IMG/VR virus record: IMGVR_UViG_3300032331_000813
Location: 1-64,000 of that record
Source: a virus
Direction: 5' to 3' (one strand)
DNA length: 64,000 nucleotides
The notes beneath the pieces were generated by a model. That model did not search any database. It saw only the letters and a list, made by a program, of their open reading frames with translations, and was not told the DNA's origin. Of the stretch, positions 1,581 to 13,913 are shown one piece after another. Made by a program: the position numbers and the translations under genes. Positions within the stretch are counted from its first letter, which is position 1, and every line of letters begins with the position of its first letter.

Positions 1581-1686
1581 TGTATGTTTCTCCTAAGTAA
1601 TGGCTTTGTAGAGTTATTTAGTGGGTATTCACCAAACATGCTCAATAAGATAGTATTTTTTACGTTTTGAGGAGAAATATAGAGAT

Positions 1687-1914
1687 TTAGACTGAAGGAG
1701 TCTCAGCATCTGGCTTTGCGCCATACTGCTCATGTACTTTTTTTATGTACTTTGCTTTTTCAAAATTTCGAACATCTAACATTTTTCTAAGTTTGCGTAT
1801 CTGTTTTAATGTTAATTTTGTTTTGCGACTTTCTTTCCACTTTGGTTTGCTGTTGTCCGCAGCAACATCTTGATAACCTTCTACGGCAGGATTAAACATT
1901 TCAAAAAGTTTCAT
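1687..1914 (-). CDS. Small basic hypothetical head-module protein
   Basis: 75 aa, fills the gap after the portal, TAAATA box 7 nt upstream of ATG. Confidence 0.7.
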   Translation of the reverse strand: MKLFEMFNPAVEGYQDVAADNSKPKWKESRKTKLTLKQIRKLRKMLDVRNFEKAKYIKKVHEQYGAKPDAETPSV

Positions 1915-1929
1915 AGAATAGTATTTATC

Positions 1930-8491: not shown

Positions 8492-9103
8492 ATGAAAAAT
8501 GATTTCAATGTCCCAATAACTTATTTTGGCGGGACAGGAGGACATTTTTTAATATCTTTTTTAAATGCAGCATATTTAAATGACCATATTGTATTTAAAT
8601 ACAGTAAATTTGGAAACGCACATGATACTGGCTATGCAGCCGTAGTAGGTGGTGGATTAGGCTCAACCGCACCTAACGTTGATTACAAAATAAAAACGTT
8701 ATTAGAACATTTACATACTAGAAAATTTATAGGTGTACATGTTATAGAATACCATAAATTAGTTGATATTTTCAATCAAGTTATAAAAATAACATATGAA
8801 CAATCGGATATTGAAGAAATATCAAAAATATTTGTGTTAAAGTATAGTAACGGTTTCACTAGAGATTATGATGACCTAATAATCGATTCAATAAAAAAAG
8901 GAATTAAGTTTCTACCAACGTTTTCAACAAGCTATGAAAAATCAGTAACATGCATAGCATGGGCAGAACTATTTAAAAAAGATCCTAAACTGTTAATAGA
9001 TAAGTTGTCGCAGGCGTTTAATATACCTGTGGAGAATTTTAATGTATCTAATTTAATAGAATGGAGAAAGATAACGAATACTACTTTGGCTTCATATCCG
9101 TAA
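8492..9103 (+). CDS. Hypothetical protein, possibly sulfotransferase/P-loop-like fold
   Basis: 203 aa, N-terminal beta-strand plus YFGGTGGHFL glycine loop; very AT-rich. The function is a weak guess. Confidence 0.45.
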   Translation: MKNDFNVPITYFGGTGGHFLISFLNAAYLNDHIVFKYSKFGNAHDTGYAAVVGGGLGSTAPNVDYKIKTLLEHLHTRKFIGVHVIEYHKLVDIFNQVIKITYEQSDIEEISKIFVLKYSNGFTRDYDDLIIDSIKKGIKFLPTFSTSYEKSVTCIAWAELFKKDPKLLIDKLSQAFNIPVENFNVSNLIEWRKITNTTLASYP

Positions 9104-9138
9104 TTATTCATTTATCTAACTTTGGGTGTTTGATTAAG

Positions 9139-9181
9139 AGATGAACTTCGTTCATCTAAGACCTCACTTCGTTCGGTCTTA
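9139..9181. terminator. Tandem hairpins, probable terminator between convergent units
   Basis: AGATGAAC-ttc-GTTCATCT (9139-9157) and TAAGACC...GGTCTTA (9157-9181), both containing ACTTCGTTC, followed by TTTTT on +. Confidence 0.55.
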
Positions 9182-9230
9182 TTTTTCTACAATTCTATAT
9201 TCTCAAAAACTTTATTATATCGGGTATATA

Positions 9231-9581
9231 TTGCCGCTTTGAAGCCATGGTAGTGCAAATTTGCACTACCAATGGAAACTTGCCATGCCCGTCATCCTTT
9301 GCCATCTATTCCCCGCATAATTGCCTTTTTCTGACATTATACGCAACCGGTTGTCCTGTAGTGTTTTTGGGACTGTAGTGAAGCTACCAATGTCTTTCAA
9401 TTGATTCTTCGACAACGCATGTTCTATATCCGCAAGATAGAGTTGGATATAGACTCATTGAAGGTTCGCTTTGACGAGAGCCTTCTCGGTTTTCCTTACC
9501 ATTACTGATAAGCATACTCCAGATCCGTCAGCACAGCACAATCTGTACAAACTCAAGGAGGACTCACAACTGAGCCAACAA
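9231..9581 (-). ncRNA. Candidate large structured non-coding RNA (~350 nt), family unknown
   Basis: No ORF of 60 aa or more; many hairpins whose mismatches resolve as G-U pairs only on the minus strand, a GUAA (GNRA) tetraloop hairpin and a 24-bp palindrome. Confidence 0.5.
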
Positions 9582-9594
9582 ATTTTTAAACGTT

Positions 9595-10146
9595 TTAAAC
9601 GTCAATAGTTAAGATTGTATTTTGTTTTGACTTGGTGTCTGTTGAACAATATGATTTTAATACTGGTATATTATGTAAGAAGAAACTATCAAATTCGAAA
9701 ATCATCCAGTCTCCGTGTTTTTGAGAGGTGTAGTAAGTGAAATTATCCGCAACCCATGTTAGTTTGCTTTGTACACAAACATATCTGCCTTTACGATTAA
9801 ACTTCATAAAAAGAATGTTCACATCGTTTGGGTCAGCAACATCCATAAGTTGCGCTAGCCAACCATCTAATACTTTACACTCTCCGGTTAGTATTAAATG
9901 AAACGGAAAATCTGCATAGAACTTACATTCAACATTCATTTTACTGAATGATTGACCGGGTACAATATCACCTTTGAACGAACGAATCTGTCCTTCGTGT
10001 AATACTTCTGTTCTACTTTGATTCTTCCCGCCCACATAAGCACCAGACCCAGGAGCACGAATAAAACTCTCGCCGTAAGTATCGGATAGATATTTAGCGA
10101 TTTCTCTTTCGAAACCTGAACCTTTGTTTTTCTGTGGACTTGACAT
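9595..10146 (-). CDS. Holliday junction resolvase (Hjc-like PD-(D/E)XK nuclease)
   Basis: KNKGSGFEREIA, R.PGSGA, GDI and VECKFY motifs; start placed at MSSPQ (10146) downstream of a TAAGTA box. Confidence 0.8.
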   Translation of the reverse strand: MSSPQKNKGSGFEREIAKYLSDTYGESFIRAPGSGAYVGGKNQSRTEVLHEGQIRSFKGDIVPGQSFSKMNVECKFYADFPFHLILTGECKVLDGWLAQLMDVADPNDVNILFMKFNRKGRYVCVQSKLTWVADNFTYYTSQKHGDWMIFEFDSFFLHNIPVLKSYCSTDTKSKQNTILTIDV

Positions 10147-10178
10147 AATCATACTTATCGTTATTTCTTCGCCGTAAA

Positions 10179-11942
10179 TTATTCTATGTCTACTGCTGTG
10201 TTATAGCTAGTAAACCCATTTTCTTTGATAACTTTTAGTACATTTGGAACTCGTCCTGCTAATTCTTCACGATGACTGACAAGCCAAATAGATTTCTTCC
10301 TACGACGGCTCATGTCTTTAAGAATAGCAATAGCATTCTCAACACCCATCGTGTCCAATCCACTATCAATCAATTCATCAATAAACAATGTATTGATTGG
10401 GCTGTATAAATTTTCCCAAACATCACGGAAAGCAAAACTCAATCCTAAAATCAATCTATTGCGTTCACCGCGGCTTAGATTGTCAAAATCAAGTTCTCGT
10501 CCTAATTCTGTAATCTCAACTTGTAAATCATTTTTGAATATGACATTATGTGGCAAACCAATCTTGTCTAAGTAATGCGTCAGTCTACCATTCAAGTATG
10601 ATAGATTCTGATCAATAATCTTTTTACGCACAAAACTATCTTTGCTAGTCAATAAGTCAAGCAAGAACTTTTGATGTTCCATTGTTCTAGTCAATTTGTT
10701 AATCTTATCAAAGTTAATCTCTTGTAATGCTTTATTCTCCATCTCAGATATTTGTTCGCTGTATGGATCAACTTCTTGTGTCTTGTTCTCAATTTGAGTA
10801 ATTAAGTTTTCAAGTTGGCTATTGTGCTTAATCGCTTGTGCTTCTGTATCGTAGTGTGTACTAGGCATTAATCCTAACTCACCCAAATCTTTTACTGCTT
10901 GAATGTGTTCTAGCTGTTGAGTATTAGTAGCTAAAGCCTGTAAGGCTGCTTCTTGTAGTGCTTTTACCTTCTCATTCAATACACTTTCATGTTTCGTATC
11001 GTGAAATTCTTGACCGCAAGCATAGCAAGTATGATTTTTTAAATCATCAATTTCTTTTGTTAGTTTGTTGACTATTTTTGATTCTTTGGCTTCATCAGCT
11101 ACACAACGGGCAATTAGCTTGTTGAGGTCATCAATAGACTTACGCTTTTCGTTGTATGTGGTTAAGTTTTTATGAGCCTGTAACTCTGCTGCGATATCGA
11201 TAGTAATCAACCGTTGATAATCAATAGCAAGACGCTCTAAATCCTCATCGTGCTTCATCTTCCACAATTTTTGTCTACGCTTAGTAGATTCAATTTGTTC
11301 TTTTACACGCTTATTGGCTTCTTCAATAGCTTTTACATTAAATTCTTCTTGCTGTATACCATCTTTGGTATCTTTCAGCATACCTTTAATAACTTCTGCT
11401 TTCTCTGAAAGCAATGTGATACCCAATAATTGTTCAATAATATCACGTTGTTCATTATTTTTAAGTGCAAGAAATGGTTCAGAGTAAGTATTGAGTGCTA
11501 CGATATGCTTAAACATATCACTACTCATGTGAATCACCTTTTCAATGGCAGCTTGTGTTTCTTTGTTCTCACCTTGTGCGTCATCCATTCCTTTTTGTAA
11601 TGAATTATTAACATAGAATCGTAACACATTTGGCTTACGACCACGCTCAATCTTATACTCAATGCCCTCAACACTAAACTCTAATGTTACCATCATGTTT
11701 TTAGCATTGGTACGATTGACTAAGTTATCTTTGCGAATGCTATTGATGGGTACACCAAACAATGCGTAGGATAACCCTTGAATCAATGTAGTCTTTCCAG
11801 TGCCATTACGAGCGCCATCACCACCTAAGTCTAAGTTCTCACCTAGAATAAGTGTTAGTTCTTGTCTATCAAAGTTTACTGCTTGTGTTACTTGACCAAT
11901 TGATAAAAAGTTTCGCAATGTTATATTCTTAAGTGTGATCAT
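10179..11942 (-). CDS. gp46: Recombination endonuclease ATPase subunit (T4 gp46 / Rad50 / SbcC-like)
   Basis: NFLSIG, Walker A NGTGKT, coiled coil with CYAC zinc hook, signature LSRGE, Walker B LFIDELIDSGLD, VSH switch. Confidence 0.93.
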   Translation of the reverse strand: MITLKNITLRNFLSIGQVTQAVNFDRQELTLILGENLDLGGDGARNGTGKTTLIQGLSYALFGVPINSIRKDNLVNRTNAKNMMVTLEFSVEGIEYKIERGRKPNVLRFYVNNSLQKGMDDAQGENKETQAAIEKVIHMSSDMFKHIVALNTYSEPFLALKNNEQRDIIEQLLGITLLSEKAEVIKGMLKDTKDGIQQEEFNVKAIEEANKRVKEQIESTKRRQKLWKMKHDEDLERLAIDYQRLITIDIAAELQAHKNLTTYNEKRKSIDDLNKLIARCVADEAKESKIVNKLTKEIDDLKNHTCYACGQEFHDTKHESVLNEKVKALQEAALQALATNTQQLEHIQAVKDLGELGLMPSTHYDTEAQAIKHNSQLENLITQIENKTQEVDPYSEQISEMENKALQEINFDKINKLTRTMEHQKFLLDLLTSKDSFVRKKIIDQNLSYLNGRLTHYLDKIGLPHNVIFKNDLQVEITELGRELDFDNLSRGERNRLILGLSFAFRDVWENLYSPINTLFIDELIDSGLDTMGVENAIAILKDMSRRRKKSIWLVSHREELAGRVPNVLKVIKENGFTSYNTAVDIE

Positions 11943-12952
11943 AGGTTGTTATAGATGTCCAATAGTATTTTCTTATCAAAACTGTTACTCTCAATGCTAT
12001 TGATTTGGTCAATAATGATTTGGTCTACTGATTCAAACTTCAAGTCACCACGACCTTCTTGTTCAACCTGGTCTACTTTCATCGGTATCAATGCCATCTC
12101 TCTTAGTTTGTGTTCTGGTATTAATGTTTCACGGATGAAATTAGCTTCTTCATAACTAATATCAATATCAAGATGTACTCTAACATGGCTATCAATCAAT
12201 AGCAAACCCTCTGGGTTTTCAAGCACATCACTTAGTTTATAGACACGGAACAATGGTTGACGAGGCCAACTATGAAAGACTGGGTCTTGTCCCCATTCTA
12301 ATATCATCATGCCACGTGCATCGTCCCCTGCGTCAGCATAGTTATGGGGGAAAGCATTACCAATATACCAGACATTAGCTTTGCTTTGTCGTTTATGAAA
12401 ATGTCCACTGAATACTTTATCAAAACTTTTCATATGGTCAGTATTAATCTCACCATGATCGGGCATCTCTACCATAGCATTCATATAGAAGCGAGGCAAT
12501 TCAAAATGACCAAACAAGTATTTCCCACTTAGTTTCTGAACCTTCTTGTAATCATCTTGTACTAACCAAGGTGCAATGACTACATCTCCTTGGCTGAAGA
12601 AGTCGTTGACGATTTGTACGTTTGGTAAATGTTTAGCCCACTCAACACTATGAATGTCCCTGCGGTCACGATAATAAAGATCGTGATTGCCCGGTATAAA
12701 ATATACCCTATCAAAGTTATCATTTAATTTCTCCAATGCTTGTAATCCAAACTGTAGTGTATGGATGTTGATACTTGCTCTATGATGATTGTAATCACCC
12801 AAGAAGAAACAAGTTTCACATCCCTCACTCTTTGCTTTTTTAATAAACCAATCTACAAAATTATTGCAGTCTTGATTATGTTGCAGGCTATTTGACTTAA
12901 GGCCAAAGTGAATATCTGTAAACACCGCGGCTTTTTTAAAAAGGTTACTCAT
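11939..12952 (-). CDS. gp47: Recombination endonuclease nuclease subunit (T4 gp47 / Mre11 / SbcD-like)
   Basis: Metallophosphoesterase motifs DIHFG, LGD, GNHD, GHFE, SGHFH; likely start MSNLFKK at 12952 rather than 13018. Confidence 0.92.
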   Translation of the reverse strand: MSNLFKKAAVFTDIHFGLKSNSLQHNQDCNNFVDWFIKKAKSEGCETCFFLGDYNHHRASINIHTLQFGLQALEKLNDNFDRVYFIPGNHDLYYRDRRDIHSVEWAKHLPNVQIVNDFFSQGDVVIAPWLVQDDYKKVQKLSGKYLFGHFELPRFYMNAMVEMPDHGEINTDHMKSFDKVFSGHFHKRQSKANVWYIGNAFPHNYADAGDDARGMMILEWGQDPVFHSWPRQPLFRVYKLSDVLENPEGLLLIDSHVRVHLDIDISYEEANFIRETLIPEHKLREMALIPMKVDQVEQEGRGDLKFESVDQIIIDQINSIESNSFDKKILLDIYNNL

Positions 12953-12958
12953 CTGATT

Positions 12959-12987
12959 AGTATATAGTAAATGCCATTGACTAGCAA
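12959..12987 (-). promoter_or_regulatory. Sigma70-type promoter for gp47/gp46
   Basis: TTGCTA-N17-TATACT on -, ending 6 nt before the ATG; the -35 lies inside a 10-bp inverted repeat (12970-12994). Confidence 0.55.
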
Positions 12988-13001
12988 TGGCATTGGTAAA
13001 A

Positions 13002-13913
13002 TTATTCTTCGTAAACAACCGAACTCATTCCAGAACCTAACCCTTGACGAGTCCAGCTTGGGTTAAGCCCATTTATCTCTAAGATATCGTCACGGATGTT
13101 TTGATTACGCTTTTCTGTGTTTAATACACGACAGAAACTATTAGTAATTGCTGCGGTATAGTATGCGAATGGGTTAGCACTTTTGGCTTCGTTGAATCGT
13201 AGTCCAACGTATGTGAGTTGTAGAATAGCACTGTTACGCATTTCATCATTATATGTATATCCACGCCAATTATATTTCATGGCATATTTTTCGCACATCA
13301 TAATGTACATACGGGCTAGTTTGTTTGTTACTTGACCATGATCCTTACTGAATTCTCCAGACTTTAGATCACCTTTCCAATGACTTTTACCCACGCAATA
13401 GAAAGTATTATTTTTATCTAGTTTATAGTGTTGGAATGGGGGGAAGTTTACCTTAACATGAACCATGTCATCTACTTCTGCTTTGGTCGTCACATCTTCC
13501 AAATCAGCAAAAATCTCATCTGGATCGGTTTCATCAAATTCAAAAATATCTTTTGCTGTTTTCTTTTTAACTGTTTTGCGGGGAACTTTTGGGGCGACTG
13601 GGACATGATCCCAATTCATTACTCTAAATACTAAATCTGTCACTGGAATAGATTCTGGATCAACTGAATCTTTAGCCCCTGCTTCTATACCTAACCTACT
13701 TGCCCTAGTTTCTTTTGCTTGTTGAATGGATTCTGGTTTAAATGCATATTCTAAACTATCCTCAATTGAAGATTGGGGCATATCAACTATAAAATCGTAT
13801 CTATGATATTCTGGTTTGGCAAAATGACAATATGCGTTTTTACTTTCGTGTATCTCTTTTAGTATATCTTTGTTGTTTAAATAGTTGACAGGTTTTCTTG
13901 AGGGTAATGACAT
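13002..13913 (-). CDS. gp55: Late-transcription sigma factor (T4 gp55-like)
   Basis: NYLNNKDIL N-terminus, NWRGYTYNDEM, F...KSANPFAYYT..I.NSF.R motifs; upstream of gp47-gp46. Confidence 0.85.
   Translation of the reverse strand: MSLPSRKPVNYLNNKDILKEIHESKNAYCHFAKPEYHRYDFIVDMPQSSIEDSLEYAFKPESIQQAKETRASRLGIEAGAKDSVDPESIPVTDLVFRVMNWDHVPVAPKVPRKTVKKKTAKDIFEFDETDPDEIFADLEDVTTKAEVDDMVHVKVNFPPFQHYKLDKNNTFYCVGKSHWKGDLKSGEFSKDHGQVTNKLARMYIMMCEKYAMKYNWRGYTYNDEMRNSAILQLTYVGLRFNEAKSANPFAYYTAAITNSFCRVLNTEKRNQNIRDDILEINGLNPSWTRQGLGSGMSSVVYEE

What the first reader, a model, noticed from the sequence alone, without database searches (positions are those of the whole stretch)
9231..9581. Candidate ~350-nt structured ncRNA downstream of the resolvase
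Seen: the only long non-coding gap in the window. On the minus strand: GGCUCA-guug-UGAGUC (9561-9576), GUACA-gau-UGUGC (9536-9548), CUUAUCA-GUAA-UGGUAAG (9495-9512, GNRA loop) and CGUAUAA-UGUC..GGCA-a-UUAUGCG (~9314-9343) all need G-U pairs that would be A-C mismatches on plus. There are also a 9-bp stem (9423-9453), a GAAGG/CCUUC stem (9460-9485), a 24-bp palindrome, and possible end-closing pairing UUGUUG/CGGCAA. The strand-biased wobble pairs point to selection on RNA structure. I could not match it by eye to tRNA, tmRNA, RNase P or introns. Inference: a novel phage RNA (ribozyme, scaffold, protein sponge or replication-primer RNA).
Basis: partly seen in the sequence, partly recalled or inferred. 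Interest (0 to 1): 0.8.

Follow-up and report, generated by a model that had tools for sequence, protein, structure and literature searches.

The report
New knotted twin-box jumbo-phage RNA
The gene-free gap behind a small DNA-cutting enzyme gene of this uncultured giant lake phage encodes a real, intricately folded, doubly knotted non-coding RNA of about 355 bases that every related phage I fetched keeps, that no RNA catalogue lists, and whose job is still unknown.

Summary
Window 9231-9581, minus strand, is the core of a conserved structured RNA, followed by a variable AT-rich spacer and two conserved hairpins (9139-9180).

- **Distribution:** all ~270 related IMG/VR loci fetched with room for it carry one copy. 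It always lies 2-84 nt behind a PDDEXK_15 "resolvase" gene, and complete 352-525 kb genomes hold one copy.
- **Not coding:** no frame or genetic code gives a shared ORF.
- **Structure:** my 119-pair model, with two pseudoknots, is 95% paired in 64 sequences against 34-44% for slid controls. 70 pairs show compensatory changes against 18-25.
- **Strand:** G-U pairs outnumber A-C about 6:1, which points to the minus strand.
- **Known families:** Rfam 15, tRNA/tmRNA scans and Polynucleobacter-1 (RF01718) give nothing.
- **Twin boxes:** two 7-letter boxes, KC(AU)GGCAA at 9280-9288 and KCGGCAA at 9231-9237, change letters together (144 of 152 sequences; 10/10 independent pairs). No complementary partner exists in the RNA.

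Function is not shown. My best guess (~0.3) is that the upstream box pairs with the template DNA of the downstream box and seeds an R-loop, as ColE1 RNA II does. This scan has already found the same family several times on other DNA.

The parts
9231..9581 (-). Structured RNA core, about 351 nt from the P1 5' strand to the P1 3' strand (the profile match runs 9586 to 9229)
   Evidence: nhmmer profile of the 64-sequence core matches 9586-9229 on the minus strand. 106 core pairs are 94.6% paired.
9561..9576 (-). P2 hairpin (GGCUCA / UGAGUC, loop GUUG)
   Evidence: 5 of 6 pairs have compensatory changes and 100% of cells are paired.
9517..9560 (-). P3 (CUCC 9557-9560 with GGAG 9517-9520), enclosing hairpin P3a (9527-9552). 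The invariant CCUCCUUGA lies here.
   Evidence: P3 is 100% paired, with C-G changed to U-A in 2 of 152 sequences. P3a is 94% paired and has two alternative forms in relatives.
9495..9512 (-). P4 hairpin with GNRA tetraloop (GUAA here; GCAA or GCGA in relatives)
   Evidence: 8 of 8 pairs have compensatory changes.
9345..9491 (-). P5 long-range helix (AACCG 9487-9491 with CGGUU 9345-9349), closing the central multi-helix domain
   Evidence: 95-100% paired in 152 sequences. The outer pair occurs as U-A, C-G and A-U.
9460..9485 (-). P6/P6a hairpin (GAAGG/CCUUC and UCG/CGA) with the invariant loop CAAAGCG
   Evidence: 100% paired, with 2 covarying pairs.
9419..9458 (-). P7 hairpin. Its loop (9435-9440, CUAUCU) forms pseudoknot PK2 with AGAUGG at 9302-9307.
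   Evidence: P7 has 10 of 11 pairs compensatory. PK2 has 5 of 6 pairs compensatory and is 95-100% paired in 152 sequences.
9350..9416 (-). P8 (GUUGU 9412-9416 with ACAAC 9350-9354), enclosing the variable hairpin P8a (9380-9410) and the PK1 5' strand UCCC (9369-9372)
   Evidence: P8 is 100% paired with 2 covarying pairs. P8a covaries but MAFFT aligns it poorly (69% paired).
9310..9313 (-). PK1 3' strand (GGGA), pairing with UCCC at 9369-9372: the first pseudoknot
   Evidence: 4 of 4 pairs have compensatory changes and 96-100% are paired in 152 sequences.
9314..9343 (-). P9 hairpin (CGUAUAAUGUC / GGCAAUUAUGCG)
   Evidence: 9 of 11 pairs are compensatory.
9280..9295 (-). Small hairpin P10 (9285-9295) and twin box A (GCAUGGCAA, 9280-9288; variable letter K at 9288)
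   Evidence: K at 9288 is always the same letter as 9237: 113 of 113 sequences, then 144 of 152 in the wider set.
9245..9275 (-). P11 hairpin, nearly invariant in sequence (it contains the 24-bp palindrome at 9248-9271)
   Evidence: 98.6% paired. G-U occurs in 8 sequences and A-C in none, so it is read as RNA.
9231..9237 (-). Twin box B (GCGGCAA), which is also the 3' strand of P1; variable letter K at 9237
9181..9230 (-). AT-rich, poorly conserved spacer between the core and the tail hairpins
   Evidence: Mean pairwise identity is 56%, against 75.5% for the core and 90% for the hairpins.
9139..9180 (.). Two conserved tail hairpins, T1 (9158-9180) and T2 (9139-9157), each holding GAACGAAGU. 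They are probably back-to-back terminators for the converging transcripts.
   Evidence: 10 of 13 pairs are compensatory, 99.8% are Watson-Crick and there is no G-U. On the plus strand T1 is followed by ATTTTTCT.
9595..10152 (-). PDDEXK_15 nuclease gene ('RusA-like/D14-like resolvase'), always directly upstream of the RNA on the same strand
   Evidence: Pfam PF24608 at 2.7e-25 and phrog_244. It is upstream in 192 of 192 loci with room and in 79 of 79 loci of a wider set.

Best explanation
**Shown.** Window 9231-9581 (minus strand) is the gene for a roughly 355-nt non-coding RNA of a family that is not in Rfam.
- It folds into about 12 helices (P1-P11) locked by two pseudoknots, with a GNRA tetraloop and 56 invariant unpaired bases.
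- It is the last element of the minus-strand gene row gp55-like sigma, gp47, gp46, PDDEXK nuclease.
- A variable AT-rich spacer and two conserved hairpins follow it.
- It carries two near-identical 7-letter boxes, box A (KC[AU]GGCAA) in and after hairpin P10 and box B (KCGGCAA) at the 3' end of the core. Their letters change together across relatives, and no complementary partner exists anywhere in the RNA.

**Inferred (about 0.3).**
- The RNA is made as the tail of the nuclease transcript, because no conserved promoter of its own was seen.
- The folded core holds box A where it can pair with the template DNA strand of box B just behind the polymerase. Identical letters in the two boxes are exactly what RNA-to-template pairing requires.
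- That pairing would seed a persistent RNA-DNA hybrid (R-loop) over the AT-rich spacer. The hybrid would be used to start leading-strand DNA synthesis, or recombination-dependent replication, in the way ColE1 RNA II and the R-loop origins of phage T4 work.
- P1 (5' end with box B) would compete with this pairing and could gate it.
For: **Real RNA.**
- The gap is conserved at 68-97% identity in all 80 loci found through the nuclease, and in 119 more found through an RNA motif alone.
- It is also present in 79 of 79 loci of a wider lineage.
- No ORF is shared in any frame, or with any stop codon reassigned.
- RNAalifold gives 50 of 89 pairs with double changes.
- My 119-pair model is 95.2% paired against 34-44% when slid. 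It has 70 pairs with double changes against 18-25, and 0 of 500 shuffles reach it.
- Both pseudoknots hold in 152 sequences.
- G-U makes up 6.5% of core cells and A-C about 1%.
- Complete 352-525 kb genomes hold one copy each.
- Contigs from four metatranscriptome studies cover the core, and some run on into the nuclease gene of relatives.

**Twin boxes.**
- Positions 9288 and 9237 are G/G in 72 and U/U in 41 of 113 sequences, never mixed.
- Each position shows 14 changes on the tree. 10 of 10 independent pairs on supported branches go the same way (p 0.002).
- Columns between the two boxes reach an MI of only 0.36 or less, so this is not block linkage.
- In 152 sequences the two letters agree in 144, using all four bases.
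- Other box letters also change in concert: ACGUAGCAA/ACAGCAA in L335, CCAUGGCAA/CCGGCAA in L349, GGCAG in both boxes in L315, GCAAGUA in both in L289.
- No complementary column exists in the RNA or from -40 to +170 around it. No conserved complementary site lies in the flanks.

**R-loop reading.** A two-site rule (box A RNA with box B template) needs fewer concerted changes than any three-site scheme with a separate target. ColE1 RNA II forms a persistent hybrid that primes replication (PMC5043065). That an upstream G-rich loop of RNA II pairs with the C-rich template near the origin (Masukata and Tomizawa 1990) is from my own memory. The locus lies in the recombination and replication gene row.
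Against: - Nothing shows an R-loop, a primer 3' end or origin activity.
- The fold is far more elaborate than R-loop seeding seems to need: two pseudoknots, a GNRA loop and many invariant unpaired bases. That is more typical of RNAs that act as folded particles.
- The boxes are short (7 nt), and box A needs a 1-2 nt bulge to match box B.
- 8 of 152 sequences break the identity rule.
- The RNA is followed by terminator-like hairpins and faces converging late genes, so a fork started here would run head-on into them.
- No RNase HI gene (PF00075) is found in three complete relatives, so processing would depend on the host or on another enzyme.
- No conserved promoter or MotA-type box was found upstream.
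- Cultured phages with a homologous nuclease (SCTP-2, Phosso, PA5oct) have no such RNA.
- The expression evidence is contigs only. It is not strand-resolved, and DNA carry-over is possible.
Confidence: 0.3

Rival explanations
1. The RNA is a trans-acting folded particle: a ribozyme, the RNA scaffold of a ribonucleoprotein, or a self-assembling RNA like ROOL and GOLLD. It is released from the 3' end of the nuclease transcript. The twin boxes bind two copies, or two states, of a separate nucleic-acid target that co-evolves with the phage.
For: - The RNA is large, has two pseudoknots, a GNRA tetraloop and 56 invariant unpaired bases in 64 sequences. These are features typical of ribozymes and RNP scaffolds.
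- The sequence of P11 and of the junctions is nearly invariant.
- In RNA libraries the core is covered more deeply than the nuclease gene in two runs. This is weak evidence because it rests on contigs.
- There is one copy per genome.
Against: - No target that covaries with the boxes was found within the flanks held.
- Three sites would have to change together about 14 times on the tree.
- No protein partner or cleavage site is indicated by anything here.
Confidence: 0.25
2. The RNA is a cis-acting 3'-UTR element of the gp47-gp46-nuclease transcript. It protects the mRNA end from exonucleases, controls termination, or insulates the transcript from the converging late transcripts. It has no function of its own once released.
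For: - It always lies 2-84 nt after the nuclease stop codon on the same strand.
- No conserved promoter of its own was found.
- Back-to-back terminator-like hairpins follow it.
- RNA-library contigs bridge the gene-RNA junction in relatives.
Against: - 3'-end protection or termination needs a hairpin, not a 355-nt doubly knotted fold with dozens of invariant unpaired bases.
- The twin-box rule has no role in such a model.
- Homologous nuclease genes in cultured phages do without it.
Confidence: 0.15
3. The RNA is a cofactor or guide of the adjacent PDDEXK nuclease. The dimeric enzyme would use the two identical boxes to address two identical 7-nt sites.
For: Gene and RNA are strictly adjacent in every locus with room (271 of 271). 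Twin identical boxes would suit a symmetric dimer (inference).
Against: - All loci come from one phage clade, so the adjacency may be inherited synteny.
- The protein is an ordinary 185-aa PDDEXK_15 domain with no extra RNA-binding domain.
- Its homologues in SCTP-2, Phosso and PA5oct have no RNA next to them.
- No RNA-guided PD-(D/E)XK resolvase is known to me.
Confidence: 0.07
4. It is not a functional RNA. The conservation would reflect a DNA-level element (a protein-binding site, or a cruciform around the palindrome) or a decayed gene.
For: The window has a perfect 24-bp palindrome, and the tail hairpins have no G-U pairs. The single-sequence fold is no better on one strand than on the other.
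Against: - 70 pairs show compensatory changes, including two long-range pseudoknots, which a DNA site would not keep.
- G-U over A-C bias is about 6:1.
- In most relatives the palindrome's loop is not palindromic, and P11 tolerates G-U but never A-C.
- There is no ORF remnant in any frame.
Confidence: 0.02

Closest known systems
GOLLD (RF01998) and ROOL (RF03087): large ornate RNAs of unknown function often carried by phages and prophages
   Same: It is a large, multi-helix, pseudoknotted non-coding RNA, encoded by phages, found in lake metagenomes, present in one copy, with unknown function. The cryo-EM preprint 10.1101/2024.12.08.627333 reports that those RNAs form RNA-only complexes.
   Different: There is no covariance-model match at all. 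This RNA is much shorter (about 355 nt, against about 800 and about 580 from my memory). It is not next to tRNA genes, of which the window has none. It is tied to a nuclease gene and carries twin boxes. It is not a member of either family.
ColE1/pMB1 RNA II pre-primer (and the R-loop origins oriF and oriG of phage T4)
   Same: A folded transcript of several hundred nucleotides whose upstream segment has the same letters as a segment near its 3' end, so it can pair with the template strand there. An unwinding-prone stretch follows. The role of RNA II as persistent hybrid and primer is described in PMC5043065.
   Different: There is no sequence or structural homology. No antisense RNA I-type regulator was seen. 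No RNase HI gene is found in complete relatives. Terminator-like hairpins follow the RNA. The fold is knotted and far more conserved than RNA II. No T4-type middle promoter was seen. The likeness concerns how it may work, not membership.
Polynucleobacter-1 RNA motif (Rfam RF01718; Weinberg et al. 2010, PMC2864571)
   Same: A structured RNA candidate from freshwater and estuary metagenomes. Earlier notes of this scan name it as the closest catalogued fragment for sister lineages of this RNA.
   Different: There is no match at the locus, even at E up to 10, in the window or in four related genomes. The only hit, 10.6 bits against a cut-off of 37, lies elsewhere in G003. This lineage is not a detectable member.
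csRNAs of Fremin, Bhatt and Kyrpides 2023 (PMC10690425), predicted from IMG/VR intergenic regions
   Same: The same data source (IMG/VR) and the same kind of evidence (covariation in phage intergenic regions). Some of their candidates lie next to resolvase or RusA genes.
   Different: Their candidates are 29-151 nt long and lie 'upstream of' those genes. Their pipeline kept only BLAST bit scores of 20-200, which a 355-nt conserved RNA would exceed. I could not check their files for fragments of this RNA.

Membership tests
Any Rfam 15 family | Covariance-model score at or above the family's gathering threshold | tested here: not met
   There are 0 matches in the whole window at gathering thresholds. 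In 9000-9750 at E up to 10 only three chance-level hits appear (CRISPR-DR25 at 20 bits, and two sRNAs on the tail).
Polynucleobacter-1 (RF01718) | Model match of at least 37 bits at the locus | tested here: not met
   There is no hit in 9000-9750. There is no hit at the RNA locus in G000-G004, and the single 10.6-bit hit lies elsewhere.
GOLLD / ROOL | Model match; typical neighbourhood of tRNA genes | tested here: not met
   No Rfam match, and ARAGORN finds no tRNA in the 64-kb window.
tmRNA / tRNA-like | tRNA-like domain with acceptor and T arm, plus a tag reading frame | tested here: not met
   ARAGORN finds 0 tRNA and 0 tmRNA genes, and Rfam gives no tmRNA hit.
Group I intron | P3-P7 pseudoknot core with J8/7 and a G-binding site, inserted in a host gene with two exons | tested here: not met
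   The RF00028 clan gives no hit. The upstream gene is complete (PF24608 positions 2-154 of 164) and ends in a stop codon, and there is no downstream exon. The strand after P9 enters PK1 with 0 nt of linker where J8/7 would be.
Bacterial RNase P RNA | P4 formed by CR-I and CR-V, with the 3' strand of P4 next to the 3' strand of P1; model match | tested here: not met
   By eye GGAAUACCG and ACAGAGCAACCGGUA recall CR-I and CR-V. However, about 120 nt (P9, PK strands, P10, P11) separate that helix from P1, and no RNase P model matches.
ColE1 RNA II-type primer RNA (working likeness, not homology) | An upstream RNA segment has the same sequence as a segment near the hybrid start, so it can pair with the template strand | tested here: met
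   The letters of boxes A and B agree in 144 of 152 sequences, 10 of 10 independent pairs change together, and other box letters change in concert.
ColE1 RNA II-type primer RNA (working likeness, not homology) | Persistent RNA-DNA hybrid, RNase H processing and DNA synthesis from the RNA 3' end | not testable with these tools
   This needs wet-lab R-loop and origin mapping. PF00075 is absent from three complete relatives, which is neutral to slightly negative.
Phage T4 R-loop origins (oriF, oriG) | Middle-mode promoter (MotA box plus -10) directly upstream of an unwinding element | tested here: inconclusive
   Only a weak sigma-70-like site (9641-9614) exists, and it is not kept in relatives. 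There is no T4-late TATAAATA (1 of 107). An AT-rich spacer lies downstream. I did not scan for a MotA-box consensus.

The most novel reading that the evidence does not exclude
The RNA is a guide or cofactor for the adjacent dimeric PD-(D/E)XK 'resolvase'. Its two always-identical 7-letter boxes would address the two identical strands or sites that the dimer cuts. That would make it the first RNA-directed Holliday-junction-type nuclease. The evidence does not exclude this, because gene and RNA are strictly adjacent and the twin boxes have no partner within the RNA.
Probability: 0.05. Interest if true: 0.95.

Novelty: categorically new. Interest (0 to 1): 0.75.

Why it matters
Large RNAs with intricate, conserved tertiary folds are rare, and most of those whose roles are known are ribozymes or cores of essential machines. 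This one is found in a large clade of uncultured jumbo T4-like phages of lakes and rivers (genomes of 350-525 kb). It has enough sequence diversity for a confident fold, including two pseudoknots, and it is absent from Rfam and from the papers I could search.

Its twin boxes follow an unusual evolutionary rule: the same letter is kept, not the complementary one. That rule points to pairing with something outside the RNA, most simply its own template DNA. If so, it would be a structured, self-anchoring primer or R-loop RNA in a virus, and it would locate a replication or recombination start site in phages whose origins are unknown. Whatever the function, the RNA is a well-defined target for structure determination and for genetics once a host-phage pair is in culture.

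Tried and rejected
- **Rfam.** At gathering thresholds and at E up to 10 there is nothing real. Rfam on the four GTDB hits also gave nothing.
- **Coding.** No ORF is shared in any frame, even with TGA, TAG or TAA read through.
- **tRNA/tmRNA.** None.
- **Single-sequence energy.** z -1.75 and -1.69 on the two strands, which is not informative.
- **blastn against deposited phages.** No match.
- **Nuclease homologues in cultured phages.** SCTP-2, Phosso and PA5oct have no gap downstream.
- **GTDB genome scan with the RNA motif.** It gave only 28-nt chance matches inside what look like transporter coding regions of two Acidobacteriota MAGs. The profile found nothing in the other two hits, so there is no host clue.
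- **Polynucleobacter-1.** No match.
- **Partner for the twin boxes.** I found no complementary column in the RNA, no column from -40 to +170, and no conserved TTGCCGM site in the flanks. The 5' strand of P1 does not track the variable letter, except in L335.
- **Own promoter.** The sigma-70-like site is not conserved, and no T4-late motif is present.
- **RNAalifold's long-range pairs 69-72/396-399 and 82-86/386-391.** I dropped them in favour of P3a and P3, because L072's double change fits only P3.
- **Read laying.** Only contigs were available. Parts without cover, contig ends at about 9561-9588, and depth differences cannot be read as transcript ends or levels.
- **RNase HI (PF00075).** Not found in complete relatives.
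- **The search for homologous proteins.** It listed only close relatives of at least 78% identity, so it did not widen the family.
- **The look-up of encoding contigs.** I reached a wider lineage through the search for related loci with representative P0121 instead.
- **Not tried.** I built no covariance model, because a 360-position model would exceed the calibration limit.

Full report
**What is at the site.** The window is a 64-kb piece of an 84-kb IMG/VR virus record. The stretch 9104-9594 lies between a plus-strand ORF (8492-9103, 203 aa, no family) and a minus-strand gene (9595-10152). That gene is a PDDEXK_15 nuclease (PF24608, 2.7e-25), which PHROGs calls a RusA-like Holliday-junction resolvase. 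Upstream of it on the minus strand lie homologues of T4 gp46 (10179-11942), gp47 (11939-13018) and the late sigma factor gp55 (13002-13913). Baseplate, portal and other structural genes surround the row. This is the longest stretch of the window without an ORF of 90 aa or more. The next such stretch holds a 75-aa ORF.

**Conservation, and not coding.**
- A search with the nuclease found 417 related stretches in IMG/VR. All 80 fetched carry the gap sequence at 68-97% identity directly after the gene.
A profile of the core finds exactly one copy in each of the 199 sources scanned, which include the window.
- A wider lineage, with a nuclease about 60-70% identical, has the RNA in 79 of 79 loci with room.
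- Three complete genomes of 352-525 kb hold one copy each.
- No reading frame is shared among relatives on either strand, even if any one stop codon is read through.
- The core averages 75.5% pairwise identity, the spacer after it 56%, and the two tail hairpins 90%.

**Structure.**
- RNAalifold on 64 distinct sequences predicts 89 pairs, 50 of them with compensatory double changes.
- Mutual-information scans on 64 and then 111 sequences recovered the same helices and added two long-range interactions.
- My model has 119 pairs: P1 to P11, pseudoknots PK1 and PK2, and the tail hairpins T1 and T2.
- On alignment A1, 95.2% of cells form standard pairs, against 34-44% when the 3' partners are slid by 1-3 columns.
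- 70 pairs show changes on both sides, against 18-25 when slid. None of 500 column shuffles reaches the observed values.
- PK1 (9369-9372 with 9310-9313) and PK2 (the P7 loop 9435-9440 with 9302-9307) remain 95-100% paired, with several pair types, in 152 sequences.
- These counts are not corrected for phylogeny beyond the slid control, and R-scape was not available.

**Strand.** G-U pairs make up 6.5% of core cells and A-C about 1%, so the RNA is read from the window's minus strand, co-directional with the nuclease gene. The tail hairpins have no G-U at all. With the T-run after T1 on the plus strand, they look like back-to-back terminators for the converging transcripts.

**Expression.** Six public metatranscriptome runs hold part of the stretch. 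Contigs from four of them, from four studies, cover the core, and some run on into the nuclease gene of relatives. These are contigs, they are not strand-resolved, and DNA carry-over is possible. This is only a weak sign of transcription.

**Link to the nuclease.** In 192 of 192 loci with room, the nuclease gene lies 2-84 nt (median 12) upstream on the same strand. The downstream 203-aa ORF occurs only in the window. No conserved promoter lies between gene and RNA, so co-transcription is the simplest reading. The nearest nuclease homologues in cultured jumbo phages are SCTP-2, Phosso and PA5oct, at 38-45% identity. None of them has a gap or an RNA there. The RNA is therefore a feature of one large uncultured clade, not of the nuclease family as a whole.

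**Twin boxes.** I followed a lead from earlier notes of this scan and looked for columns that keep the same letter.
- Only one pair stood out: 9288, in GACGG[K]CAUGGCAA, and 9237, in CAAA[K]CGGCAA. They are G/G in 72 and U/U in 41 of 113 sequences, never mixed.
- On a tree built without those columns, each position changes 14 times. In 10 of 10 independent pairs on supported branches both go the same way (p 0.002).
- Columns lying between them reach an MI of only 0.36 or less, so block inheritance does not explain it.
- In the wider set the rule holds in 144 of 152 sequences with all four letters.
- Other box letters also change in concert. Examples are ACGUAGCAA/ACAGCAA in L335, CCAUGGCAA/CCGGCAA in L349, GGCAG in both boxes in L315, and GCAAGUA in both in L289.
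- No column of the RNA or its near flanks is complementary to the variable letter.

**What it is not.** Rfam 15 has no match. ARAGORN finds no tRNA or tmRNA. Polynucleobacter-1, named in earlier notes for sister lineages, does not match here. The topology differs from group I introns and from RNase P (see the membership test). GTDB genomes hold only chance 28-nt matches. The literature I could search has no description of it. The IMG/VR survey of structured RNAs reports only elements of 29-151 nt.

**How it may work.** Identical-letter covariation without an internal complement means that both boxes meet the same complementary sequence. The most economical candidate is the template DNA strand of box B, which is by definition complementary to box B and hence to box A. 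That is the logic of the ColE1 RNA II pre-primer. RNA II's role as persistent hybrid and primer is reviewed in PMC5043065. The detail that an upstream G-rich loop pairs with the C-rich template is from my memory of Masukata and Tomizawa 1990. The setting fits loosely: the recombination and replication gene row, an AT-rich spacer just downstream, and T4-type phages known to use R-loop origins. I put this at about 0.3.

Several points count against it:
- the elaborate fold;
- the terminator-like hairpins;
- the converging late genes;
- the lack of an RNase HI gene in complete relatives;
- the absence of any direct evidence.

The rivals are a trans-acting particle with an external target (0.25), a cis 3'-UTR element (0.15), and a cofactor of the nuclease (0.07).

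**Verdict.** This is a new class of large, doubly pseudoknotted phage RNA with an unusual twin-box signature, and its function is unknown. The same family has already been reported several times by this scan on other genomes, so this window adds a further member plus an independent test of the twin-box rule.

Noticed in passing
window 8492-9103 (+): The 203-aa ORF that converges on the RNA has no Pfam or PHROG family. tblastn finds it in none of the roughly 190 related loci with room downstream, so the RNA's downstream neighbour is variable and this gene looks like a recent insertion.
   Followed up: partly
window 9627-9641 (-), inside the nuclease gene's C-terminal tail: A DNA motif CAGACAC[CA]A[AC]GTCAA (coding TDTKS) is kept at a variable distance, about 35-50 nt before the RNA, in nearly all relatives and is duplicated in some (L077, L168, L191). 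It could be a peptide repeat or an RNA/DNA signal; which one is not resolved.
   Followed up: partly
window 9139-9180: The two tail hairpins each contain GAACGAAGU and are 90% conserved in sequence. That is far more than terminators need, so they may have a further role such as a protein-binding site.
   Followed up: partly
A1 columns 48-75 (window 9527-9552) in relatives: Hairpin P3a exists in two alternative forms among relatives: the window's GUACAG...CUGUGC form, and a shorter form with a UGAAAGAU loop flanked by tandem G-A/A-G mismatches, which may be a kink-turn-like module.
   Followed up: no
window 9460-9485, 9350-9354, 9280-9284, 9231-9235: GCAA-type words recur in the RNA: GGCAA in both boxes, GGCAA in P6 of most relatives, and GCAAC in the P8 3' strand. 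UUG-type complements lie in the 5' strands of P1 and P8, so alternative pairings (a switch) are conceivable.
   Followed up: no
window 1581-1929: The second-longest stretch without a long ORF holds a 75-aa minus-strand ORF (1687-1914) between the portal gene and an acidic 270-aa gene. It is probably a small head-core protein, not a second RNA.
   Followed up: partly
I did not examine it.
   Followed up: no
run X16 (labelled marine metatranscriptome), laid on window 9224-9561: A 3.3-kb contig of depth 147 from a run labelled marine carries a close relative of the RNA core (15 differences in 338 nt). The clade may therefore not be limited to fresh water, or the label may be loose.
   Followed up: no
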